DNA of 62,897 bases, the filler included, from Bigelowiella natans CCMP2755 (Eukaryota > Protista > Cercozoa), in NCBI GenBank assembly GCA_000320545.1. It is 7 parts of 7 records of this genome, joined end to end, with 100 filler letters (N's around TTAATTAATTAA, not from the genome) between each part and the next. Parts side by side here need not be neighbours in the genome. Positions count along the whole stretch, not along the records: positions 1 to 22,729 come from ADNK01000575.1; 6 more parts are not named here. One strand, written 5' to 3'. The position numbers and the translations under genes are program-made. The notes beneath the pieces were generated by a model, which was not told where the DNA came from, ran no database searches, and saw only the letters and a list, made by a program, of their open reading frames with translations. Below, piece by piece: positions 6,022 through 61,279 of the stretch. How positions within the stretch are numbered: position 1 is the stretch's first letter; each line of letters begins with the position of its first letter.

Positions 6022-7382
6022 CTGCGATACTCATTCAGTATGTGCGCCCCACATACATATACGTGTAAATAAACCCTTGGGAGAAAAGCGAAATTGATAA
6101 TAATAATTGTGTTAAAATGCTGGTGAGATGAGGTATGTCCTACTATAGACACAGGCCACATTTATGCGTTATATCTATTGTTCCTGCTAGAAATATGTCA
6201 TTAAATAAGATTTTATTCATCCCCCAGGCGATAAACTCTTGTCACAGCGAAATAAGCACGCTCTATACATTGAATTGCCAAATATCCAAGCAAATGTGTA
6301 TCATTTGCATGCGGAATGGGTGTTTCACACGCGTACATCTGGACATGCTCATTATTTGCAGCGCACATAACGATGCAACGATGCATTGTTGCACACAGCT
6401 TCATCAAATTGATGCATGTTGAGCTTTGGTCGCTAAAATCTACATGACAGCCTTGGGCGACGATGACGGGTTCCGCCAGCTCGGCCTTGTTAGCGCTTTA
6501 TCCACCCCGCACGCACAAGATCCAACATGAACTGTCATGAACGCAAACAGCTGTGTTAGTGAGCCATGGTCAAGCTGCTGTCCATGTCACCAACCATGCT
6601 AGCATGTCAGCCTCCAGATTGCGAATCCATTTTTTCACAGTCTGGAACTTGCTGCACTTCCAGACTTGCGCGTTCAAAAAATTCAAAATCGCCGATCCAT
6701 GCAACTGTTGCAGACATCACTGCAGCCATCATCATCACCACTGACCACAGCACACTGGCACATACAAGCACAGTGCGTGAACCAAACTCTAGAACTAGCA
6801 AATCCTTTGAAAGGGGGTCACAATGACTCCAATTCCATGCCAGCATTGTCATGGAAAACGTTTGCTAGTTTGGCACATTGGGATCGAGCAGAAGGGCCCA
6901 AAAATTTCCAAAAATGTCACGCCCAATGCATGTGGACAGAACACCATCACACAACGTGCACTGCGTGTCAAACAAAACAGCACATCATGACCCTTCGATT
7001 TGAGCCACATTGCAGCGCCACATGCCAGCATGCCAGCATGCTGGCATGGTCCGATTTGAATGAAAAGAATCTCCTCTGCAGGCTCTTTCTGGGGGGGATG
7101 GTTGGTAAATGTTCTGTCTAATTCATGGCGGAATGATCGGAAGGAATTCATGCATTGCAAAAACGTGCAATGGTGGCGAAAATTGGACAAAGTGAGCACT
7201 TTCCAGCATCTCCGGCCAACTTTGGCACACCTTGGCAATTTTTGAATTGCTTCTGCCATGCATCAGACTGAATGGATGGCATCCCCATGAAAGCCTTGCC
7301 GAGGCAGTTCTTTTCGACTGTGCAGCGAACAATCGAGACCACCGCACAGAAAATGCGGGGCATCAAAACGAGTGAACCAGTC

Positions 7383-7708
7383 TGTTGCGCGTAAGGTGTT
7401 CACAGGCCGAGGCGCTACGTGCACAAGTAGGCAGGGGGGGGGAAAGGCACGTTTGCTTCCTTTTGAAGAGTTGTGTTTATTTTTATTAAAGATTATATTT
7501 TTATTAAATCGTGCACTGCGTAATCATTCGCGAAGCTTTCGCGAATGCCGCCGCACGTGGGGCAGCACACTTCCGGTGTGCTGCCATGAGTCCCGCCGGA
7601 ACCCACGTGCCTATGCTGTATTAATATCTACGTTATCTATATTCTATATCCGCGACAACCCCTTTGTTGTCGCACGTGACTTGTGCCCGCGTAGTGGTAC
7701 GCGCTACA
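7383..7708 (-). repeat. 3' LTR (326 bp)
   Basis: Matches 12773-13098 base for base (offset 5390). Terminal inverted repeat TGTTGCGCGTA / TACGCGCTACA (10 of 11 match). Confidence 0.97.
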
Positions 7709-7716
7709 CCTCCCCC
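7709..7716 (-). promoter_or_regulatory. Polypurine tract (GGGGGAGG)
   Basis: Purine run directly abutting the 3' LTR on the coding strand. A further AAGG repeat lies just upstream. Confidence 0.8.
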
Positions 7717-7759
7717 AAGTCACGTTGCTCCTTCCTTCCTTCCTTATTCCCTTAGACCT

Positions 7760-10700
7760 TCATCGCTTTCGGAACTTCACCAACCACCAGGTAATAGATT
7801 CCTCTCTAACCTTATCTCCTTTGTCGCTTACCCAGAACTCACCTTCGTCCTTAGGTTCGTGTCCATACCAGCCCTCTGCATCAAGGTCCCCCAGGACCTT
7901 ATACCAGTGCTCAAAGGGTAAGTCGGGAACAGCTAGGTAGAGTAGCTGATATTTTCCGTCCTTTATTTTCATAGCTACCCTCTCCATATTTCGTAATCCA
8001 GGGTAGCCTAGATAGACAATCTTCATGCGCCAATCGTCGTTCACCCTGACCTTATTGTTTCCATATTCCACATCGAACTTAGGTCGGGGTCCTAAACAAG
8101 GCATTGCTCGCTCCCACACAGTAGGGTTTACTTTAACATCCTCTAGGAGCTTCTCACCGATATCATAATTCTTTAGGTGACTGATGTGGCGCAAGGTGAC
8201 CCTGTTCCCATCATAGATGTAGTACTGCTTCCTCCCCTTCCTCTCGGTAACCTTTGCAACGCCACCCCAGAAGGGGTCTTGTTTATTTCTCGATCTCAGA
8301 TTTACCTTGGCCCTAACATACTGTCCTTCCTTTAGAACTCGGCCATCGTACGGGACCTTCTCGTCTTCGCTCTCGGTATCGTCGTCGTTGTCGTCGCCTT
8401 CTTCCCTCTCCTTATCCTTGATACCTCCCCCAGACGTGAAGGTGTCGTTTACTAACCCTTGTATCTTGTCTGGTGTGGTGCTATTTATCCTGCTTAGGTT
8501 GGCCAAGGTGCGGTGGAGTCGCTCTACCTTGGAGTTGGACTGGGCATAGTATACAGGTGAGGCATCAATATTAGGGTGTGGTAGCTGTAGAAGAGAGGTC
8601 TCATTATCCACATGTAACTTCTTTGGTATCTTGTTTATGCTAACTTCATCAGGGATAGCCTGGAGCTCAGACTCCCAGGTACGGTAGCAGTTAGTAAGCC
8701 TCTGCTTATATAAGCCTTTGTTCTTCTTAGCAACGTTGACCTTGATAATCTTTTTAACCCAGCACTTTCCAGTGGCCACATCAACGAAGGTAAGGTAGTG
8801 ATAGCCATCGTACTTATAAACATCAATTTGCACGATATCTAAGAAGTTCCTTGCTTTGATTTTCTTAGATGCACGGCTCTTGCTGGACTCCTTGGTGGCG
8901 ACGCCTGCCGCCTTCAAGCTGGAGCACCTGCAGCCACGCAGGTATGTCCTTATCTCTTTTAGCTTGTAGGGCCAGTAGTAATGGTAGAGTAGAGCAGTGA
9001 TATGGTTTTCTCCTACGTGTGCAGGTCCATGGGCGGTAAAGAGAAGGGCTCCCCTGGTCCGCCGTGGCACGTAGGTACGCCTAACATTATTAGTGTATAC
9101 ATATATCCTATCACTAAGTACCTCATGCTTGTGTTTGTATTTATCCAGGTGTTCTTGAAGGTGCTGGAGCTCCTCTGGCTCAGGCAGGAAGTCGCCGTCC
9201 TCGAAGGTAATCGCGTTAACCATAGGGGTGACCTGGGTAGGGACTTTCTTTTCGAACAGCCTGCTGAAATAGTCAGCAAGCTGCTTGTCTCCTGGTGCGT
9301 AGACCACTGTCCTCTTGTCCCTAAACTCTTCCGTGTCCGCCCTCATAGCTGCATACTCATCGTTAGGCGCTTCGAGCTTGCGGTCGATGCCTAGGAGGGG
9401 CTTGTGGTCAGTCATTAAGGTGAAGCTGGGCACCGACAGCAGGTAGTGTCTTAGTTTCCTCTGCGCCTCAGTCATGGCTTTATACTCTCCTTTTGTAGGG
9501 CTGTACTTGGCCTCAGCTGCTGTGCAGGCCCTGCCCCACACCCGTATGATCTGCTGGTCTTGGGTAAGTACAGCAGCCATACCTAGCTTAGACCAGTCTG
9601 TCCATAGGGTAGCTGGTCTAGTAGTGTCTAGCTTAGCATTCAATAGGGTGTTGCTGCATAACTTTATTAGGTTATCGAAGTGGGCATCAAGGCCAGCCTT
9701 GGCCCACACCTTAGCGAAGCTGAGGCCTACAGAGTTCTCCTTCCGGTAAGCAGTAGTAAAAGCAGCTGCAGTCCTAGCGTAGGTAGGGGAGAACCTACGT
9801 AGTATCCAAGCTGCAGTCTGCAAGAATGACTTTAACTCCTTTGCATTCTTAGGTTTAGGGGCTTGCTGTAGTGCTGCTACTTTCTCGGGGTTTGGGGTGA
9901 TGCGGCCTTGCTCCAGGTAATATCCACACCACTTGATTCTTGTAGCTAGGAATGTACACTTCTGCAGTCTAATAGTAAAACCGAAGTGTGCAAACCTAAT
10001 AAATATATTTTCCAGGAGGAAGATCTGAGCGACGACTGTGTTGGTACATATTATGTCATCATCCACATACACAAACACAAACACCCACAACACAGACGCC
10101 ATCCCATCATGTGTGTATGCCCTGTAGTTCTGACTACTGAACGCATCCCCTGATATGCTTAGGCCGTAAGGGAATACGACGAAGTGCCACTTCCTGTGCC
10201 TGCTGGAGAACGCGGTAATGGGGCGGGAGGTTTTGTGGATGGGTGTCTGCATGTATGATTCATTTTTATCTAGGGAAGAGTAGTATTTGTATCCTATGAC
10301 GTGTTCAATAACGTCATCTATCCTTGGTGTAGGTGTCTGGATCCTCTTTATTACTCGGTTGTGGCGGATGAAGTTGTGCGCCAGGCGGAAGAAAGGGTAA
10401 GTAGGTTTCTTAGCTAGCACATGTCTCACGTTCCATGGTGAGTTGCTTGGCTCTATCTTCCCTTCCTTTGCCCATTCATTGATCTGCCACTCTATCTTTT
10501 CCCAGTCCGCTTCCGGTCGCCTATGTTCTGGGTCATTGATGATGCACTCTTCGTATCCCTTCTTTAGCTCGATCTTTACTGGGGTAAGCTTGCTGGAGGG
10601 CTTCGTCGTCGGCTTGGTGATGTCAGAGTACTTCTCGTTTAATATTTTATTAATGTACTTTTTGCCTTTGTCGATATCCCAATCATCAGCTGGGGGGGTC

Positions 10701-12733
10701 TTGTCCAGTAGCTCCGTTATCTGTCGGATGGTCTTGCCGGGGTTCTTCTTCCGTAGCTCGGTAGGTGTAGGTAGCTTGTTGTCCGCTAGGTCCATAAACT
10801 CTAACGCATTAACGCTTGACTCAGAGGTCCACTCGTCAAGCCGTATCATGTTCTGGCTGATGGTCCTGCCTGACTTCTTTGGCAACTTAGCAAAGTATAT
10901 CTTGTGATTGTAGAATGATATGATCCCCCCTAATTTTTCTAGGGCATCCTGTCCGAGGAGTAGTTCCATGGATAAAGTCATGGCTACTCGGGTCTTGATT
11001 TGGGTCTCCGCGTCGCTGCCAGGTATCTGTAGCTTTAGCATTAGCTCACCGACGGTCTTCATGGAAGAGCTTCCGTCTGCTTGAGCATATTTACGTTCTT
11101 TCTTAGTCACTTGATCCAATAGTCCTAACCTTCTTACTGTGCTTAGGCTTATGAAGGACTTCGGCATGCTGCCACTATCCCAAAGGGCAGGTAGTTTCTT
11201 GTAGTCTCCGTAGCTGTCTTTAACTTTAACCTTGGTCATAGCAACTTTGATAGTCCTGTTAGCGTCTTCGTCATTAATGTTGCATACTCCTAAGTTCTTT
11301 ATGTCGTCTAGGGTCATGGGCTTGTCTTGGTCCTGCGTTGCTGGTACTGCTGTCTTCGTCGGCGCCTGCTTAAGGTGATCTAATATTCCGTTTATCTGCT
11401 GCTGTATAGCATTGATACTGTTCTGCTTTTTGTTCTTATATTTATTGTTCTTCCCGTTGTTGCTGCCTTGCCATTTGCTGTTGTTATATCCTTGTCCTCT
11501 GCCTTTCTTTCTCTTTAACTTCTCGTAGTGTTCGTTGAGCTGCCTGATCGTCATCCTGGGTCGTCCTTCTTTCCTGTCTCTGCAGTCTTTAGCGGTGTGT
11601 TTCCCTTTACGTGAGCAGTATCCGCAACGTCGGTTACCTTCCCTGTCCTTGTACCAGTCTCGCTGCGGCTTAATAGCGTTAATGTTTCCTATGCCAGGTA
11701 CCTTAGGGCTGGTAAACTTGCGGTCCTGCTCCTGCTCGCGTAGGGATATAGCCTGCACTGCTGCCTCCATCGTGGTGTAGCCTTTCTCCGTAACGTAAGT
11801 GGATTCCTTTATCTTTAACTTGAACTCTTCAAACCTTGCCTGATCATCACCTGTGTTGTAATTAAAATCATGTAGTTCGTCGATCATATCCTGGAAGCGC
11901 GTGGCAAAGTCTCTAACAGGTTCTCTCTCATGCTGCATCATTGCTCTGTATTTTCTAATAGCCTGGGGTAGGGAGTTAGCATCCTGTTCATTTACAAAAG
12001 CCTTCATTATCGCCTCAACGTCTCGTAGCCCACTAACTGTAGTGTGTATTTTCTCTAGCTGCCTGATCCGGGTCCTGCCTGTCTCGTAAAGGTCCATGGC
12101 TTGCTTTATTATAGCTAGCCATTTGAGCTTGTCGTTTTCGGTGGGGTTAGGGGTAAAGTCGCAGAGTATACTCCTAGCGTTCTTCCACCACCTCCTTGCC
12201 TCACCTCTTTTCCCGTTGTATTTCGTTATCATAACCGGTGCTGTTTTAACAGACATGAACTGGGTGTTCCGCTGTACCGGCTGCTGCTGCTTGACGGTGC
12301 TCTGGGTCGTCCCCCGCGAGGCGCCCAGACCCCCGTCGTTCCTAAACAAAGCTGCCCACTCTGGAGGTAAGTCTGCTTCGTAATCCATGATGTCCTGCAT
12401 GATAGCTGCCCAAACATCATGTGTCTGATACTTGTATTCTATCGATACTTTCAGTTTGGCGTAGTTGCTCGCCCTGGGTCGCAAGGCTCGTAATGCCATT
12501 ACGACCTTCTTGCTTTCGGCGGCCACGTCCTCGTCGTCCGCCTCGTAGAAGTTCTCCAGTGCCTCTGCTGCTGCATCTGCTTTCTTAATCCCGGGTGCTG
12601 GTCCCGGCGGTGCCTGTGGAGGTGTTCCTCCTCCTTCCTTAGCGTCCGTATCGCCCTTCCTTTCCTGTTTCTGCTCGTGCCCTTGCACGGCCTGCGAGCC
12701 AAAGTCCTGCTGTTCTTCTAGCTGCTGTGACAT
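7760..12733 (-). CDS. Gag-Pol polyprotein, 1657 aa (gag zinc knuckle, aspartic protease, RT, RNase H, integrase, C-terminal extra domain)
   Basis: Motifs: CGYCSRKGKHTAKDC; LWDSGS; YVDD; RNase H TDWS, GEYKAM, TDHKPL and ADYFSR; integrase AHGPAH..CRC, IVQID, HVDNE and SKVERLHRTL; GPY/F-like PFWGG..RHISHLKNY. No stops or frameshifts. Confidence 0.96.
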   Translation of the reverse strand: MSQQLEEQQDFGSQAVQGHEQKQERKGDTDAKEGGGTPPQAPPGPAPGIKKADAAAEALENFYEADDEDVAAESKKVVMALRALRPRASNYAKLKVSIEYKYQTHDVWAAIMQDIMDYEADLPPEWAALFRNDGGLGASRGTTQSTVKQQQPVQRNTQFMSVKTAPVMITKYNGKRGEARRWWKNARSILCDFTPNPTENDKLKWLAIIKQAMDLYETGRTRIRQLEKIHTTVSGLRDVEAIMKAFVNEQDANSLPQAIRKYRAMMQHEREPVRDFATRFQDMIDELHDFNYNTGDDQARFEEFKLKIKESTYVTEKGYTTMEAAVQAISLREQEQDRKFTSPKVPGIGNINAIKPQRDWYKDREGNRRCGYCSRKGKHTAKDCRDRKEGRPRMTIRQLNEHYEKLKRKKGRGQGYNNSKWQGSNNGKNNKYKNKKQNSINAIQQQINGILDHLKQAPTKTAVPATQDQDKPMTLDDIKNLGVCNINDEDANRTIKVAMTKVKVKDSYGDYKKLPALWDSGSMPKSFISLSTVRRLGLLDQVTKKERKYAQADGSSSMKTVGELMLKLQIPGSDAETQIKTRVAMTLSMELLLGQDALEKLGGIISFYNHKIYFAKLPKKSGRTISQNMIRLDEWTSESSVNALEFMDLADNKLPTPTELRKKNPGKTIRQITELLDKTPPADDWDIDKGKKYINKILNEKYSDITKPTTKPSSKLTPVKIELKKGYEECIINDPEHRRPEADWEKIEWQINEWAKEGKIEPSNSPWNVRHVLAKKPTYPFFRLAHNFIRHNRVIKRIQTPTPRIDDVIEHVIGYKYYSSLDKNESYMQTPIHKTSRPITAFSSRHRKWHFVVFPYGLSISGDAFSSQNYRAYTHDGMASVLWVFVFVYVDDDIICTNTVVAQIFLLENIFIRFAHFGFTIRLQKCTFLATRIKWCGYYLEQGRITPNPEKVAALQQAPKPKNAKELKSFLQTAAWILRRFSPTYARTAAAFTTAYRKENSVGLSFAKVWAKAGLDAHFDNLIKLCSNTLLNAKLDTTRPATLWTDWSKLGMAAVLTQDQQIIRVWGRACTAAEAKYSPTKGEYKAMTEAQRKLRHYLLSVPSFTLMTDHKPLLGIDRKLEAPNDEYAAMRADTEEFRDKRTVVYAPGDKQLADYFSRLFEKKVPTQVTPMVNAITFEDGDFLPEPEELQHLQEHLDKYKHKHEVLSDRIYVYTNNVRRTYVPRRTRGALLFTAHGPAHVGENHITALLYHYYWPYKLKEIRTYLRGCRCSSLKAAGVATKESSKSRASKKIKARNFLDIVQIDVYKYDGYHYLTFVDVATGKCWVKKIIKVNVAKKNKGLYKQRLTNCYRTWESELQAIPDEVSINKIPKKLHVDNETSLLQLPHPNIDASPVYYAQSNSKVERLHRTLANLSRINSTTPDKIQGLVNDTFTSGGGIKDKEREEGDDNDDDTESEDEKVPYDGRVLKEGQYVRAKVNLRSRNKQDPFWGGVAKVTERKGRKQYYIYDGNRVTLRHISHLKNYDIGEKLLEDVKVNPTVWERAMPCLGPRPKFDVEYGNNKVRVNDDWRMKIVYLGYPGLRNMERVAMKIKDGKYQLLYLAVPDLPFEHWYKVLGDLDAEGWYGHEPKDEGEFWVSDKGDKVREESITWWLVKFRKR

Positions 12734-12749
12734 TGTTAGTCAAATCGTT

Positions 12750-12767
12750 TCCCGTGTGTGGAAGCCA
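12750..12767 (-). promoter_or_regulatory. Candidate primer-binding site (TGGCTTCCACACACGGGA)
   Basis: Begins with TGG 5 nt after the 5' LTR. Its complement ...CCCGTGTGTGGAAGCCA looks like a tRNA 3' end. The cognate tRNA is not identified. Confidence 0.6.
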
Positions 12768-12772
12768 AAGGT

Positions 12773-13098
12773 TGTTGCGCGTAAGGTGTTCACAGGCCGA
12801 GGCGCTACGTGCACAAGTAGGCAGGGGGGGGGAAAGGCACGTTTGCTTCCTTTTGAAGAGTTGTGTTTATTTTTATTAAAGATTATATTTTTATTAAATC
12901 GTGCACTGCGTAATCATTCGCGAAGCTTTCGCGAATGCCGCCGCACGTGGGGCAGCACACTTCCGGTGTGCTGCCATGAGTCCCGCCGGAACCCACGTGC
13001 CTATGCTGTATTAATATCTACGTTATCTATATTCTATATCCGCGACAACCCCTTTGTTGTCGCACGTGACTTGTGCCCGCGTAGTGGTACGCGCTACA
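12773..13098 (-). repeat. 5' LTR (326 bp)
   Basis: Identical to 7383-7708 and followed by the TSD AGTC. Confidence 0.97.
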
Positions 13099-13776
13099 AG
13101 TCTAGCAGTGAAATGATTCCCACTGAAAGTGTTGCGGGTGAATGAATGAGTGCATGAAGCGATCAAATCCAAATGCACAGCTGAAAGCATCATGGGTGTG
13201 CTGACTCATCCACTCCACAACCCTCCTCAATCAGAAAGACAGAAAGAAAGAAGTGTTTCCTGTTCCATGGACAATGGAGCAGGATCACGGGAACCACAAA
13301 ATTGTTGTTCACGATTCGCAAACGCCCTACATTTTCCATCTACAACAATTCCAAACACACGTCGCAGGATCAAATAACTGCAACGTTCGTCCCTTCCAAA
13401 AAGAAGCGTTCGAGGATCTTACGAGTAGCAATCGTTCCTCCGAAACTGCTGCGATCTCCCCGAAAAGGGCAAAAAACAGATTGAGCGTCTTGAAAGGATG
13501 TCGCAGGAACAAAAGGCAAGCCAATTTACCTACAGCCGTGCTCTCCGTTCGCTGATCGAACTCGTTGCTTTCCCGACCGAACATCACAATGGAACACGTT
13601 TTGACTTTGATGTAGCAAGGAGGCCCCCCCCTCCTGAACCAACGTGTACAAGACAGGACCAACATCATCCAGCAATTGACTCATCATTCAGATATATCTC
13701 ATCTTCCTCCTGGAACAAAAATCGGAATTTCGCAATTGTGACCTTTGAAATCGTAAGCTCTTTCTTCCGCTTGGCT

Positions 13777-14568
13777 ATGGCGAGCTTTCAGTCAGTTAAC
13801 CAGCACATCAATGGAAAAAAAAGGAGAAGAGCGTTCAATTCCAAAGATAAAAGAATCAAGCTGAGCGACTCTTCCTATCCATGCGGTATCAACAGCGGTC
13901 TGATGCGACACGGGAGTAGTCTCGTGACATCGCATCTACGATCGATCACACGTTTCTGCCCACTCACATCAGGGTCCACTATCAGCATTTTCGGTGTTAG
14001 GAAAAAAAATCAGCGCAAAAATACGGTAGCTTGTGATGAAGACGAGAAACAGGAAAAACCGTTGGTGAAAGCAGAGCCGAGATCTCATGAAGCGCCCGAT
14101 CACACCAAGCAGGTTTACGCTACCCCCCCAGGGAAGGACTTCAAAAAGACAAGGACTACACAAATTAAGAAAGTTATATTAAATATCAATTCTAAATTTT
14201 CCAAGATGAAAGCGAAGTCCAGCACCAAAACCTGCTCCAAAATGAGAAAAAAGTCAGAAAAGCGAAAATATGACAAGCTCCCTGAAGGCCACCATTACGT
14301 CAGAAGCATAAAAGGTAAAGTGTGAACCTCAAAATACTTGTTCAGCCATTTGGAGATTGAGAGAATTTATTTTTTGGGTTTATTTTGGTTTATTCTAGGC
14401 CATTTCCTCACAGATGAAGGTATATTTTTCCGTGTTCAATGGTGGGAGGGAGACGTTACCGAAGAGCCTTTGAGCTCGGTTATTCATATGCTTCCAACAC
14501 ATTATGCCAAAGAATGGGAGAAGCTTCAACAATCTGTACCTTCTTGGGTTCTTTCAATGTGCACTTAG
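13777..14568 (+). CDS. Basic low-complexity protein with a C-terminal chromodomain-like fold
   Basis: An 84-nt GT-AG intron (14315-14398) joins ORFs 13498..14325 and 14338..14568, giving HYVRSIKGHFLTDEGIFFRVQWWEGDVTEEPLSSV. This matches the chromodomain pattern Y.V..I..H......Y/F.V.W.....TWEP. The start codon is uncertain (13498 or 13777). Confidence 0.6.
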
Positions 14569-15205
14569 AGGAAAATGTGGAACACAAACAAGGTTATTCT
14601 AATCTGCATCGAAAGCTGTTGCACGATTGGATTTGCTCTTAGCTACATCCGCCGGAGCGCATACAACGTATAAAACTCACGGCAAATGTGAAATTTATAT
14701 AACTTTAGAAAAATGATGATGTCATAGCAGACATTGGTGCCATTATGATCAACGTAGCATGGCATTGGCACACGGTAGCTCACTAGCTATCTGTTGTCGT
14801 GTGTCACGTCGTGTGTCACAATTGGTTGTCAGCAGATGATCCATTGCGACCAAGCTTGCATGCATTCGCAACTTTGAGCCGCCAGATATCTGCTGCATCA
14901 CAGATGATTTGGCATTCTATTAATGGCTACCTGCACACGCAGGTGTAGAGCACGTGTCCTTTATTCTTGCCATTTGCTGGTCTTGCTGGCCTAGCGTCAG
15001 AAGAAATGTTGCTGCAGTACATCGCAATGCCATGCAATGCCAAGCGCACATTGCGTGCAGCGTTCACGCGATGCATCAGTCATTCTGGAATCATTGCAAC
15101 AGCAGCTACAAATGAACTCACAGCAAGTCTCAAATGAAATGTATAAACTACGGCTACTATGCCTCATCAGTGTGATTTATTTTTTGTTGGTGACTGATGT
15201 TAGCG

Positions 15206-20743: not shown

Positions 20744-21095
20744 GATGAAGGCACCTACGCAGAGCACTGTGAGCACCGGAAGCAGATGGGATATAACTCT
20801 GGAATGGGAGAGATCTTCCGCAAGGTATTAACTGAAGATCATCGAATTCATATGCGCAATTGGATTTGCTGGGAAATTGGGAGCTCTGCTACATTTTCCC
20901 ACCAGTAGCTCCTCGTCGATCGATGAAGATACTTATGAGATCTGAGCAACCATATCAATGGGGATGGTGCGTAATCAGGTGGCGAGCATCACACCCCTGG
21001 CTGGTGTGGGTCAATCTCCGACTTGCAGCATTCAGCAAGAGAGAGACAATCAGGCTGCTGGCGCCATCTGTGAGGGACCTGCATGTAAAGAGTAA
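20744..21095 (+). CDS. 3' exons of a small uncharacterised protein
   Basis: Exons 20744-20824 and 20979-21095 splice in phase: DEGTYAEHCEHRKQMGYNSGMGEIFRK|VASITPLAG...CKE*. No 5' exons lie upstream. Confidence 0.55.
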
Positions 21096-21525
21096 TCGGC
21101 GAGAACTACATTAGGGGACAGCATGATGAACATGATTTTATTGACGCAGATTAGCTCCCATTTCCTAGATGCAAATGGAGGACATCATCGTTTGACTTAC
21201 CATGTAACAACTGTACTCGCCATGCGTGCATGCGTGTGTTTGTGCGCTCGACTCACATGCAGTCACGGGTTGTAGGTGTCAACGTAGCTAGGTAGATGCC
21301 ATGTGATGAACAATGGTAGAAGACATGTTTCTTGCACATGTTCATTTTATAATTTTTGCACGCGCATGTGCACTGCACAATGCACAGTGAGTTGCATGCG
21401 CAAAGCAACAGTGCATGCAACAACGCGTGCAGAGCCAAGGCAAAACAGAACTCACAAACCTGGTCCGCCTTGTAGCGATGGCACGAAGGAATCGCAGCCA
21501 GCAGCGCATGACGCTCATCAGTGTT

Positions 21526-21569
<44 letters not shown>

Positions 21570-21836
21570 GCTCAGTCGGACAGAGTCCAGAGCGCAACAA
21601 GGAGTGAATGATGAAATGAAGTGTTTCCAATGACGGTGCGGCTGAAAATGAATGTATGGGAAACCAGGAAACCCATGAAAAATGGTTACAAATCTCGAGT
21701 CGTAGTCGAGAAATCCCCCGTCTCGCGCCCTTGCACCTGTACATGCAGGGCTACTGCACACCAACTGAAGAGCGTGTTGCGGAGGCTGGGCGACTTCCAT
21801 ACAAGTTGAAATACATGCGGTTTTTGCCCCTGCGAC

Positions 21837-22478: not shown

Positions 22479-22642
<164 letters not shown>

Positions 22643-22644
22643 TG

Positions 22645-22729
22645 TGGAATGGGAGAGATCTTCCGCAAGGTATTAACTGAAGATCATCGAATTCATATGC
22701 GCAATTGGATTTGCTGGGAAATTGGGAGC
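22645..22729 (+). repeat. 85-bp exact direct copy of 20800-20884 at a contig end
   Basis: TGGAATGGGAGAGATCTTCCGCAAG...GGGAAATTGGGAGC occurs at both positions. Confidence 0.95.
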
Positions 22730-23859: not shown

Positions 23860-23903
23860 ACACAGTAAGATACTTCATCGACGAGATTATGATACATTGC
23901 GCG

Positions 23904-23942
<39 letters not shown>

Positions 23943-24741
23943 ATATATTAGTAAGCATATATTCATTTCTCTGTATTTACTTGTGTGTGTGTGCGTGTGT
24001 GTGCGCGCGCGCAATGTATCATAATCTCGTCGATGAAGTATCTTACTGTGAGCGATTCGTGCCATGTGGAATGGTTGCGACAACAGAATCCTGAGGAAGG
24101 TGAGGAGGAGGAAGAAGGAAGAGCAAGAAAGAAGCTTAAGAAAACAAAAACATAACCTCAGCTACAAAAAGCAAAAAGTCATCATCACCAATTTCCTACC
24201 ACATCGACTGCTCGCATAGTATCCGCCAGAACTTCTCCCCGAAGAAGTCGAATCGATTGAACATCTCCCTATTTTCGTGAGTAGCATCACAAAACACAGG
24301 AGGGGAACGATGGGGAGAAGATGAGATGAAACCGAGAAGACACCCGTCGTGATGACTGGAAGAGCTTCGTGGGAGATGCTCTCTTTCTCTCTCTCTCCCC
24401 TCCCCCCACCCCCCTCCCCTCTTTCTCTCTTTCTCTCTTTTGATAAGCTGATCAAGGGGATGCGGCAAAACACAGAAGCAAGCGTTGGTGACTGTATTGC
24501 ACTGGGGAGGTGCTGAATTCGATAGCCTCAAAAGTCTTTTCGGAGAACAAAAGAGATCCGCATCGATCGTTTCGTCTCTCGTATTATTACCAGGCTTCTG
24601 TGTACCAAATGCCAAAGCGAAGACCCTGCCTTTTCAGCATCGTGTGCTGGAAACTCTGCGCTGCGGACTTGGGGGATAGGAGAAAGGAGCACTCAGATGG
24701 AGCATACACACACGCACACACACACAAAGATAGATAGATAG

Positions 24742-41410: not shown

Positions 41411-42721
41411 AGACCATGATGACATGTTAACGAGGCAGTGCGAGTGTTCGGCAGCAAGGGGGGAGGGGAGGGGGCACACTGAGACTAAGGAGGCCGGAGT
41501 GCTGCTCATTACCACCAGATGATGACGGTGGTATTCCTGTACAAAAACGTGGGTGTAGAATAGCACGAACGCCCTGCTACTGCCATAGACTTTACATTTA
41601 GCAACACGTAGTTAATTGCGCAACGCTCTATCAGCGATGATTAGTAGATTAACATATTATATTTATCTATTTAATATGTAAGCATATATAGATACATAGA
41701 TAGCCATATAATGCACTTTTCTTGCAATGCGAGATTTCCGAACTCATTATTAGAATGACGACAGCCACGGCAGAGTCTCGTCAGGACTATAATTTAAGAT
41801 GGTAATAAAATTACAGGAAGGGGTTATGCTAGTGTGGTATGTCTCACACATGCATGTTGTTGTTGTTGTTGTTGTTGTTGTGCTGTGCGATGCTGCCGGG
41901 CGGCCCACGCTAGCACGCGCTACCTTAGCTTGAGCTGTGCCATCAAAATGTGCTTGCACATTTTTAGCTGTTGCGTCATGCGGTCGATGCGATTAAGCAC
42001 ACGTACCGTGTCGCCGTGCTAGACGCAACTCCGGCACTTCTAGAGACTTGTCGATGTCTCGAATGTCTGGGAGCTTGCATGCTTCTGAGCCGCGGCATGT
42101 GAGCACGTGCAGCATGCATTTGTTTTGCATTGCATTGGACTTGTCAAGCAGCTTGATTCGCTAACACATGTCACGTGAGCCAGCAAATGCTTGCCACTTG
42201 CCATGCACGCACAGAGCGCACATCACACGGCGTGCTGTGCAGTGCCAGATCTACACGCAGCTTCAGAACAAGCAGTCTTGTGTGGCTAGCTTGTGAACAA
42301 GCTCTTGAGCTTGCTAGCTTGTTTGCAGCAGGCTAGCAGGCCACAGGGCAAACTAGCAAAGAGCTCTAGACACACATGTGCGGAAAGGCGAGTTCGACGG
42401 ATCAACCCTAAATGTTCACCCGTGACGACGAAAAGGGGTTGTGAGGATCTACATGGGCTGATGCCATGATGCCCAAACTAATCTGACCCCACAGCCCACC
42501 GAAGCTAGAGCGCTGCGATGCAGACGCGAAGGTCGGAAAATTTTGCGGGCGTTTCTAGTTTTTTGCGTATTTAATCCATTGTCGTGAGGTGATTTCGCAG
42601 GGGATTCAACGATATTTTCTTCTCCTTGGTGCACACGTGCGCTGCCCCTGGCTGCCTACCTGCCCGCCCTTGGGCGACGAATAGCGATTAATCAGTAGTC
42701 GTTGGACGATCCTCTTCATCC

Positions 42722-54784: not shown

Positions 54785-55975
54785 TCATTTGAGATTTTTG
54801 TATGAAGATTTCATGTCCCCGTGGGAACTCGTTACTCCACTACGGGTAGAGGGTCTTGTTGACGCTCGGCTACGAGTGGATCCCCGTTTTTGCCTCAGAG
54901 CCTTCGCGGCTGCTTTCTTTTTCCTCTGCTCCTTTCTCTTCTGCACGATTTGTTTGTATAGGGTTTTGCGATATTCACTAATTGAGAATCTAACGTTATC
55001 GTCAATTGATATCTTTATGGGTTTCGACATTGTAATTTCTTCGTCCGTGTTGCTAAACTGCTTTAAGTATGGGTGTTTAAGGGCTTCTGTGGACGTGATT
55101 CGTTTTTCGGGATTGAACTGAAGTAGTTTTCCTAAGAGATCTAATGCGTCGGTCGATGCGTTTGGGTACAAAGAACGAAGTGTTTTCCTCTCTTTGACGC
55201 TAATGTTCTCGAGCATGCTGGAAGTGTAGCGCGACCTTATCGCCGCCATATCCTCCTTGCTCGGAAATCCCGTGACAGCAATAACCTTTTCTAGCTGGTT
55301 GATTGTCGAGTCTCCAGGAAACATCGGATTCCCCCCAACGAGTTCTCCCAAAATGCATCCTATGGACCACATGTCGACCGACTTGCTGTACTTCGTCGAG
55401 CCAAGTAGGATTTCTGGCGCTCTATACCATCGGGTCGCAACGTAATCGGTGAGGACAACATTGGTGTTGTCTACGTCTAAGTTCTCGCAAGACCGCGCAA
55501 GGCCAAAATCGATAAGTTTGCAGTGACAGTCAGAATTCAAGAGAACGTTACTAGGCTTCATATCTCGATGGATCAGCTCTCCAGAGTGTAAAAACTTAAG
55601 AGCCTTAATTATTTGATAAAGGATATACTTCTTGTGCACCTGCTCAAGGATATTTGCTCGGATAACCGCATGGAGATTTATTTCCATGTACTCAAAGACC
55701 AAATAAATATCTCTGTCATTATCAGCTTTCAGAACGTTGAGGAGCCGAATGATATTTGGATGAGAAGTCATGTTAAGTTCTTGCAAGAACATGATCTCTC
55801 GGAAAGTTCTTTGCGCATCAGTAGAGTTTTGGAATGCATCGAAGATCTTCTTCAAAGCCACTGTGCGTCGTGTCTTACGATCAGTTGCTTTCCACACAAT
55901 ACCGTAAGCTCCCTTCCCAACTCGCTTACCCACTTCGTACTTCCGAAGGATATGTTTATCGATTTCCTCGCTCAT
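54785..55975 (-). CDS. MAPK15: MAP kinase of the ERK7/ERK8 (MAPK15) type, intronless CDS, 396 aa
   Basis: MSEEIDKHILRKY, GKGAYGIVWKA, KKIFDAFQNSTDAQRTFREIMFLQE, HRDMKPSN, DFG and TDYVATRWYRAPE. Confidence 0.95.
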   Translation of the reverse strand: MSEEIDKHILRKYEVGKRVGKGAYGIVWKATDRKTRRTVALKKIFDAFQNSTDAQRTFREIMFLQELNMTSHPNIIRLLNVLKADNDRDIYLVFEYMEINLHAVIRANILEQVHKKYILYQIIKALKFLHSGELIHRDMKPSNVLLNSDCHCKLIDFGLARSCENLDVDNTNVVLTDYVATRWYRAPEILLGSTKYSKSVDMWSIGCILGELVGGNPMFPGDSTINQLEKVIAVTGFPSKEDMAAIRSRYTSSMLENISVKERKTLRSLYPNASTDALDLLGKLLQFNPEKRITSTEALKHPYLKQFSNTDEEITMSKPIKISIDDNVRFSISEYRKTLYKQIVQKRKEQRKKKAAAKALRQKRGSTRSRASTRPSTRSGVTSSHGDMKSSYKNLK

Positions 55976-60828: not shown

Positions 60829-61279
60829 GGAGGGGGCAGAAGTACCCTTCGACTTCAATCACCCCTTAGAAGCGGTAACGCCGGAGAAGAACAACAATCA
60901 CGCTGCTATAGAATACGACGTCGAGCTGATCATGCCCCCCCAAGAGGTGCGCCGCGACGATGATGATGGATGTGTTGTTGCTTAAGATTGATTGATGATT
61001 TTGCTCATTTGATTTCATACGCGTAACGGTGATGATGATGATGAAGAAGAAGAAGATGATGATGTATGCAAAACGACGTTTTGCAGCGGGAAGAGGCTAA
61101 GAAAGAATCATCATATGGGGAGCTCAATAGTGAGCGGAAGGTTCTCCCACCACCACCACCACCACCATCACCATCACCATCACCATCATCATCATCATCA
61201 TCATCATCACTTATCTCTGGGGAAGGCACCGGATCTGTGCGTCTCTCTCATCATTTCATCCATCCCAAAGCGTGTTATG

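What the first reader, a model, noticed from the sequence alone, without database searches (positions are those of the whole stretch)
6541..13327. Insertion site is purged of TpA dinucleotides: possible RIP-like TpA to TpG/CpA hypermutation
Seen (hand count): 3 TA dinucleotides in 6841-7380 (540 bp) and none in 13105-13327, with abundant TG/CA, TGCA and CATG. The element between them is TA-rich. Flanking ORFs lack Tyr and are rich in Cys/His/Met; back-mutating gives more protein-like text (LACGAAMWLKSKGHDVLF becomes LAYGAAIWLKSKGYDVLF). Established: 5mCpG deamination removes CpG but not TpA, and fungal RIP creates TpA. Inference: a different context-specific mutator (A to G / T to C at TpA, possibly adenine modification or deamination) acts on silent DNA. 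The element landed afterwards inside such a zone. A link to its MTase-like tail is speculative but testable.
Basis: partly seen in the sequence, partly recalled or inferred. Interest (0 to 1): 0.78.

Follow-up and report, generated by a model that had tools for sequence, protein, structure and literature searches.

The report
Retrotransposon inside algal TpA-hypermutation scar
A young jumping gene in the alga Bigelowiella natans sits in a 1.1-kb stretch almost free of TA dinucleotides, likely a scar of the TA-to-TG/CA mutator already reported for this alga in a 2026 preprint; a sister copy of the element carries exactly that damage, and the mutator likely spares CTAG sites.

Summary
The counts are right. 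With the element removed, the flanks form one 1,107-bp patch with 9 TA against 56 expected, rich in TG/CA. The window is Bigelowiella natans. TpA>TpG/CpA hypermutation in this alga is already in a 2026 preprint (10.64898/2026.01.13.699255), so the process is known.

The insert is an intact Ty3/Gypsy element with identical 326-bp LTRs and a 4-bp target duplication. Three runs hold the empty site, already purged, with no differences, so the scar predates the insertion.

Not in the preprint's main text:
- A B. natans copy of this family has 16 of 18 amino-acid changes of the TA type; two related gene models (1,243 and 670 aa) lack tyrosine.
- Surviving TAs are mostly CTAG/YTAR, while RTAY is about 30-fold depleted, also in a 41%-identical metagenomic relative.

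The patch's ancestor was not found, and the back-mutated peptide argument is circular. The tail has an N6-methyltransferase-like fold (Z 6.6) but no NPP motif; no link to the scar is shown.

The parts
6501..7382 (.). TpA-purged patch, left part (882 bp, 8 TA, rho TA 0.14, rho TG+CA 1.73); ancestor not identified
7021..7048 (.). Short imperfect palindromic repeat of CATG and C(C/T)(A/G)G units; inferred to derive from a TA-rich repeat; similar motifs lie beside other junctions of this LTR
7379..7382 (+). Target-site duplication, left copy (4 bp)
   Evidence: one copy in empty-site contigs
7383..7708 (-). 3' LTR, 326 bp, TG...CA, identical to the 5' LTR
7709..7718 (-). Polypurine tract before the 3' LTR
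   Evidence: read from sequence
7760..12739 (-). Single open gag-pol frame (1,659 codons stop to stop): gag, protease, RT, RNase H, integrase, tail; TA-rich (rho 1.13), CpG-poor (0.67)
7763..8137 (-). C-terminal tail with a Rossmann N6-adenine-methyltransferase-like fold; GYPG in place of NPP; conserved across the family
8159..8380 (-). Integrase C-terminal SH3-like domain (best match foamy virus integrase, Z 7.5)
9448..9448 (+). Only fixed difference listed between this copy and the laid contigs of three runs: window TG where they read TA (RTAY context); one event, may be an assembly error
12745..12772 (-). Candidate primer-binding site after the 5' LTR (tRNA not identified)
   Evidence: read from sequence; inferred
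12773..13098 (-). 5' LTR, 326 bp
13099..13102 (+). Target-site duplication, right copy
13103..13327 (.). TpA-purged patch, right part (1 TA, in CTAG); contiguous with the left part in the empty allele
21353..21654 (.). Second small patch with the same signature (outside the finding)
42010..42500 (.). Third patch: all 12 residual TA are CTA, 7 of them CTAG (outside the finding; left edge chosen after seeing the list)

Best explanation
The 1.1-kb patch is likely an old scar of the host TpA>TpG/CpA mutator already reported for Bigelowiella natans, and a young, intact Ty3/Gypsy element inserted into it afterwards. Shown: the TA loss and TG/CA gain; the order of events (empty allele already purged); and that the mutator has hit this element's own family, one copy to near saturation, by transitions at TpA only. 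Inferred: the patch was once a TA-rich piece of mobile or foreign DNA, and it also lost CpG through cytosine methylation. Inferred: the enzyme is most likely a host adenine deaminase acting on DNA (A to inosine, read as G; the preprint's candidate is ADAT2/3-like; about 0.55 for this step). Inferred: it reads a four-base context, hitting RTAY best and CTAG least. It would inactivate copies by missense rather than nonsense change, since TA>TG/CA cannot create stops and removes all Tyr codons. The family outruns it by bursts of identical copies. The element's methyltransferase-fold tail is likely a bystander for this scar.
For: Patch statistics and scan control. Species: 100% identity over 94% of the window's MAP kinase to a Bigna1 model; 8 of 10 hits to the element's 3' part are Bigna1 models. 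Process shown de novo in the preprint, whose window cut-offs (rho TA <=0.43, TG+CA >=1.52) the patch meets. P0125 (Bigna1/137107): 16 of 18 amino-acid differences over 114 aa are TA>TG/CA products (p 2e-11 against a transitions-only null). In it, 8 of 8 TA sites where either product is visible are hit, 0 of 88 other A>G/T>C options and 0 of 18 CpG options. Tyr-free B. natans relatives P0129 (0 in 1,243 aa) and P0139 (0 in 670 aa) have His/Cys facing the element's Tyr. Empty site with 0 differences in X15, X17 and X2; filled site in X4 and X1. Context per kb in three patches (1,900 bp, 22 TA): RTAY 0.5 vs 15.1 background, mixed 2.1 vs 28.6, YTAR 8.9 vs 10.6. Control TA-poor windows without TG/CA gain show YTAR 37 of 222. 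Metagenomic relative L002 has RTAY 0.8/kb vs 14-16 in L001 and the element (p 3e-10).
Against: No paralogue or less-mutated ancestor of the patch itself was found at >=80% identity in the 8 runs laid, so direction at this locus rests on composition and on the family copy. The seawater run X20 gave only 6 listed differences on two contigs of depth under 5: 3 at TA/TG/CA sites, 1 at CpG and 2 other (p about 0.10). The foreign origin of the patch is unproven. On a fixed 1-kb grid no window meets both cut-offs (6001: 0.59/1.59). The context rule is not absolute. In P0125, 3 of 6 half-visible YTAR sites are hit, though neither of the 2 CTAG shows its visible change. A fixed-grid window at 60901 passing relaxed cut-offs has 0 CTAG among 10 TA. 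Products of CTAG are also above background (16 vs 9.2), and the patch edges were partly chosen by eye. No call tests the enzyme.
Confidence: 0.82

Rival explanations
1. Same scar and same order of events, but the chemistry is not adenine deamination: an error-prone polymerase during local repair, or a modified thymine at TpA that pairs with G, gives the T>C/A>G changes.
For: No call or cited experiment identifies the enzyme; the preprint calls its deaminase a hypothesis. CTAG is spared, although U-A-G anticodon-loop contexts are common ADAT2/3 tRNA substrates (recalled, not from a call). The changes are strand-symmetric, so the lesion could be on T or on A.
Against: The changes are almost purely transitions: 210 of 211 in the preprint's larger region and 16 of 18 in P0125. 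Error-prone polymerases usually add transversions (recalled).
Confidence: 0.3
2. The patch is an intrinsically TA-poor sequence that has also lost CpG by 5-methylcytosine decay; no TpA mutator acted here.
For: CpG is depleted (rho 0.55), no ancestor was found, and the host background is already TA-poor (0.77).
Against: CpG loss (about 24) cannot account for about 81 surplus TG/CA or remove about 47 TA. No background stretch comes near (minimum 33 against 9). TA-poor control windows lack the CTAG/YTAR bias. The mutator is proven in this genome.
Confidence: 0.06
3. The element's methyltransferase-like tail causes or guides the TpA loss, for example by marking adenines near its insertion site that are then deaminated.
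For: The tail folds confidently (pLDDT 94) and aligns best, for that domain, with N6-adenosine methyltransferases (Z 6.6 and 6.2). Three other LTR junctions lie beside the same CATG-type motif, and one single-contig flank has TA only as CTAG (these were picked up because they resemble the patch, so they are biased).
Against: The empty allele is already fully purged. The element itself is TA-rich. NPP/DPP is absent in 47 of 47 rows. The mutator also hits viral inserts with no such element reported. TE-borne DAMs with intact motifs gave no 6mA in E. coli.
Confidence: 0.05

Closest known systems
TpA hypermutation of integrated foreign DNA in Bigelowiella natans (Mettrop et al., bioRxiv 10.64898/2026.01.13.699255)
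   Same: Same species, same TpA>TpG/CpA transitions; the patch meets the paper's rho cut-offs; the paper already reports transposon domains among TA-poor genes and likens the process to RIP.
   Different: Its main text has no mention of LTR, retrotransposon, trinucleotide, CTAG or CpG. This locus is about 1.1 kb and split by an insertion, below its 3-window cluster rule. Here there is an intact-versus-mutated pair in an active LTR family, a four-base context bias and accompanying CpG loss. Its supplements were closed and may hold some of this.
Fungal repeat-induced point mutation (RIP)
   Same: Dinucleotide-specific transition mutagenesis that ruins mobile elements and leaves compositional scars (established knowledge; the preprint draws the same comparison).
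   Different: Opposite direction: RIP turns CpA into TpA and makes stops, whereas this destroys TpA and cannot make stops. Dependence on repeats is untested, and many identical copies of the element are untouched.
DAM-carrying DIRS and LTR retrotransposons (Fernandez-Moreno et al., bioRxiv 10.64898/2026.05.21.726589)
   Same: Ty3/Gypsy element with an N6-adenine-methyltransferase-like domain in the pol frame.
   Different: NPP triplet replaced by GYPG across the family; no Pfam Dam hit; the text has no mention of Bigelowiella, Rhizaria or chlorarachniophytes.
5-methylcytosine CpG decay
   Same: Also produces TpG/CpA; likely contributes about a third of the surplus here.
   Different: Cannot remove TpA; P0125 shows 0 of 18 visible CpG options hit.

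Membership tests
B. natans TpA-hypermutation target (Mettrop 2026) | Host is B. natans | tested here: met
B. natans TpA-hypermutation target (Mettrop 2026) | [quoted passage not shown] | tested here: met
   0.12/1.71 on the joined patch; 0.24/1.65 on 6501-7500. Not met on a grid starting at base 1.
B. natans TpA-hypermutation target (Mettrop 2026) | Cluster of three or more consecutive 1-kb windows (the paper's cluster rule, not a requirement of the process) | tested here: not met
   Patch is 1.1 kb and interrupted
B. natans TpA-hypermutation target (Mettrop 2026) | Directional TA>TG/CA change against an intact homologue: the patch itself | tested here: inconclusive
   No paralogue in 8 runs; X20 3 of 6 differences, p about 0.10
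B. natans TpA-hypermutation target (Mettrop 2026) | Directional TA>TG/CA change against an intact homologue: the element family | tested here: met
   P0125 16 of 18
B. natans TpA-hypermutation target (Mettrop 2026) | Viral or transposon origin of the mutated DNA (patch) | tested here: inconclusive
   No family or homologue for 21 open frames scanned, nor for the longest minus-strand frame
B. natans TpA-hypermutation target (Mettrop 2026) | Raised de novo mutation rate at the locus today | not testable with these tools
   Needs line-by-line reads; the paper's tables were closed
Fungal RIP | C>T at CpA, with gain of TpA | tested here: not met
   Opposite composition and direction
Fungal RIP | Triggered by sequence duplication | not testable with these tools
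   No genome held
Ty3/Gypsy LTR retrotransposon (the insert) | TG...CA LTRs with a target duplication | tested here: met
   empty site
Ty3/Gypsy LTR retrotransposon (the insert) | Order protease-RT-RNase H-integrase | tested here: met
   Pfam at aa 514-600, 799-940, 1019-1119, 1223-1270 (protease and integrase zinc-finger hits are below their curated cut-offs)
DAM-LTR retrotransposon | N6-adenine methyltransferase-like fold | tested here: inconclusive
   VIA Z 6.6 (107 aligned, rmsd 3.2) to cap adenosine MTase 6irx, Z 6.2 to KsgA; under Z 8; Foldseek E 0.013
DAM-LTR retrotransposon | Asn-Pro-Pro catalytic triplet | tested here: not met
   0 of 47 rows; consensus GYPG
DAM-LTR retrotransposon | Sequence match to a Dam profile | tested here: inconclusive
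   No Dam family among hits for 18 members (Pfam, PHROGs) or 47 members (NCBIfam)
DAM-LTR retrotransposon | 6mA enrichment on copies | not testable with these tools
   No modification calls available

The most novel reading that the evidence does not exclude
The B. natans TpA mutator is an adenine counterpart of RIP aimed at LTR retrotransposons, with an RTAY-preferring, CTAG-sparing enzyme that also operates in other marine protists (L002 has purged RTAY while keeping its frame and its Tyr). The family's conserved, NPP-less methyltransferase-fold tail is a counter-measure or TpA-state reader that shields new TA-rich copies or steers them into already scarred DNA. The context rule and the wider host range alone are more likely (about 0.5); the tail part is the speculative one.
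Probability: 0.1. Interest if true: 0.8.

Novelty: new member of a known kind. Interest (0 to 1): 0.43.

Why it matters
The process itself is published as a preprint, so this is a new instance and not a discovery. It adds three testable things to an open question, namely which enzyme does this and what it targets. First, an intact-versus-ruined pair inside one active LTR family shows that retrotransposons are direct targets. Second, a four-base context (RTAY hit, CTAG spared) is a fingerprint that any candidate deaminase must reproduce, and it can be checked at once on the preprint's 231 de novo mutations. Third, Tyr-free proteins and RTAY loss are cheap markers for finding the process in other protists.

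Tried and rejected
No whole genome was held, so no genome-wide scan of insertion sites or scars was possible.

Patch identity: 21 open frames from the patch, its surroundings and the second patch gave no Pfam hit better than E 0.007, none meaningful. The 137-aa minus-strand frame had 20 candidates, none at E<=10, among longer proteins, and only low-recognition Atlas hits. It did not match P0129. The 74 family proteins gave no tblastn hit outside the element, and a collapsed-alphabet comparison found only simple repeats and self-palindromes. A resemblance of that frame to the end of a LINE reverse transcriptase is recalled only and unsupported.

Eight single-copy diverged contigs on the element carry more differences than there are TA sites (for example 80 against 45, and 26 against 19). 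Only one of their letters was visible (11690, T>C at TpA), so they are not used as evidence.

The single-sequence fold of the tail failed (pLDDT 36). The PDB sequence search with the tail profile gave only ribosomal L21 (SH3-like part). The Atlas gave no usable hit for the tail. The viral contig scan found no relative; the metagenome scan gave 3 loci from 379 candidates, of which only L002 is TA-poor, L001 is TA-rich and L003 is a weak match. Splitting products by 5' or 3' neighbour did not tell whether 5' pyrimidine or 3' purine protects.

A CTAG methylase of chlorarachniophyte giant viruses as the reason for sparing: no CTAG in that paper's text. Two look-ups of earlier scan findings returned nothing. 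The 2015 provirophage paper is not held, so I could not check whether this scaffold is on its list.
Full report
Observation. The insert is bounded by identical 326-bp LTRs at 7383-7708 and 12773-13098 with a 4-bp target duplication. Removing it leaves one patch, 6501-7382 plus 13103-13327, of 1,107 bp. It has 9 TA against 55.7 expected from the rest of the window (Poisson 1e-14), with rho TpA 0.12, rho TpG+CpA 1.71 and rho CpG 0.55. The lowest count in any equal stretch was 33, both in the real background and in 40 simulated sequences. The budget roughly closes: about 47 TA and 24 CG are missing and about 81 TG/CA are surplus, so CpG decay may supply a third.

Organism and prior art. The window's MAP kinase is 100% identical over 94% of its length to a Bigelowiella natans gene model. 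A search for Bigelowiella, TpA and transposable elements found Mettrop et al., bioRxiv 10.64898/2026.01.13.699255. I read the outline and parts 1-4 of 5 of its text and ran a term search; its supplements were closed. It shows by mutation accumulation that two viral inserts mutate about 1,000 times faster than the rest of the genome, almost only TpA>TpG/CpA. It also reports transposon domains among TA-poor genes and 124 clusters of TA-poor, TG/CA-rich windows, and it proposes an ADAT2/3-like deaminase. The patch meets its cut-offs but is too short for its cluster rule. Its main text has no LTR, retrotransposon, trinucleotide, CTAG or CpG. My other five paper searches (listings only) showed no title on a context rule or on this element. 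The supplements could hold either.

The insert. One open frame of 1,659 codons on the minus strand carries protease, RT, RNase H and integrase in Ty3/Gypsy order. Eight of 10 hits to its 3' part are B. natans models, most with 100% identical segments. In DNA run X4, element contigs have depth 5,640-6,220 against 7-9 for the flanks. The tool warns that depth is no copy number, but this suggests a large recent burst.

Order of events. Contigs of X15 and X17 join 7378 to 13099 with one copy of the duplication and no differences. DNA run X2 also runs from the left flank into the right one, while X1 and X4 hold the filled site. The scar therefore predates the insertion and was not made by this copy.

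Direction. No paralogue of the patch appeared at 80% identity or more in the 8 runs laid. Seawater run X20 gave two short contigs of depth under 5 with 6 listed differences: 3 at TA/TG/CA sites (two keep TpA where the window has lost it), 1 at CpG and 2 other. That is weak (p about 0.10). The element family gives the strong test. Of 61 proteins compared, the close copies are mostly unchanged, but P0125 (Bigna1/137107) differs at 18 of 114 residues, and 16 are exact TA>TG/CA products. In it, 8 of 8 fully visible TA sites are hit, 0 of 88 other A>G/T>C options and 0 of 18 CpG options (p 2e-11). Eight of 74 family proteins have no Tyr in their aligned part. Two are long B. natans models (P0129, 1,243 aa; P0139, 670 aa); besides P0125, the other five are short pieces from a transcriptome set and metagenomes without a named host. 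The window's own copy differs from all laid contigs of three runs at one site, 9448, where it has TG for TA. A random change would be of this type 5-14% of the time, and it may be an assembly error.

Context. Five of the 9 surviving TAs are CTAG, against 5% in the background (p 4e-5). A fixed-grid window at 42001-42500, chosen on rho alone, has 7 CTAG among 13; another at 60901 has 0 among 10. Over three patches (1,900 bp, 22 TA; edges partly chosen by eye), per-kb counts are RTAY 0.5 against 15.1, mixed 2.1 against 28.6 and YTAR 8.9 against 10.6. TA-poor windows without TG/CA gain show no such bias (37 of 222), nor does the kinase gene. Independently, metagenomic relative L002 (41% identical, host unknown) keeps a 1,434-codon frame with 40 Tyr but has rho TpA 0.38. 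It has 4 RTAY in 5.3 kb against 85 and 94 in L001 and the element (p 3e-10). That is what long exposure under selection would leave, although another cause of TA avoidance is possible. Against an absolute rule, P0125 has 3 of 6 half-visible YTAR sites hit, and CTAG products are also above background. The firmest form is that CTAG is hit last.

The tail. With 47 aligned relatives the last 213 residues fold at pLDDT 94. The first part is the integrase SH3-like domain. The rest aligns with N6-adenosine methyltransferases at Z 6.6 (107 residues, rmsd 3.2) and 6.2, which is moderate support. No row has NPP or DPP; the consensus is GYPG. DAM-bearing LTR elements are described in bioRxiv 10.64898/2026.05.21.726589 (parts 1-2 of 5, section 9 and a term search seen), which keeps NPP as the hallmark and does not name Rhizaria. 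The tail looks like a DAM derivative but fails that membership test. PMC12695648 was only term-searched, with no hit; 10.1101/2025.11.19.688996 was seen as passages.

Verdict. Shown here: the scar, its age relative to the insertion, and direct damage to this LTR family. Inferred: the patch's foreign origin, a deaminase as cause, the RTAY/CTAG rule and a wider host range. Not supported: a role for the tail in making the scar. Interest 0.43.

Noticed in passing
window 7383-13098: The element looks massively amplified and polymorphic: contig depth several hundred times the flanks in DNA run X4, lower over much of the 3' end in X2, and this insertion is absent from X2, X15 and X17. A search for Bigelowiella natans with LTR retrotransposon and methylation found only one general review.
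   Followed up: partly
window 7788-12251: Contigs of runs guessed to be RNA show many GT..AG joints on the + strand, antisense to the element, suggesting spliced antisense transcripts.
   Followed up: no
window 13575-14700: Spliced transcript (intron 14313-14396) in X15 and X17 just right of the patch; its 3' exon reads like a chromodomain (recalled pattern; no Pfam hit). TA is low (0.50) but TG/CA is not raised.
   Followed up: partly
window 21353-21654 and 42010-42500: Two further small patches with TA loss and TG/CA gain; weaker signals at 6300-6500 and 14601-15200.
   Followed up: partly
window 22480-22640: Compound microsatellite (CA)n(TA)n(TG)n, and an inverted repeat at 23861-24050 with similar arms; whether the mutator converts TA repeats into CA/TG repeats is untested.
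   Followed up: no
window 20797-20884 and 22642-22729: 88-bp direct repeat (99%) ending at an assembly gap; may be an assembly artefact.
   Followed up: no
L002 1-5282: Metagenomic relative starting at an LTR-like TG, with an open frame, one in-frame stop within the integrase, and near-total loss of ATA/TAT triplets (5 and 5).
   Followed up: partly
window 54785-55975: Intron-free ERK7/MAPK15-type kinase gene, used to identify the species.
   Followed up: yes
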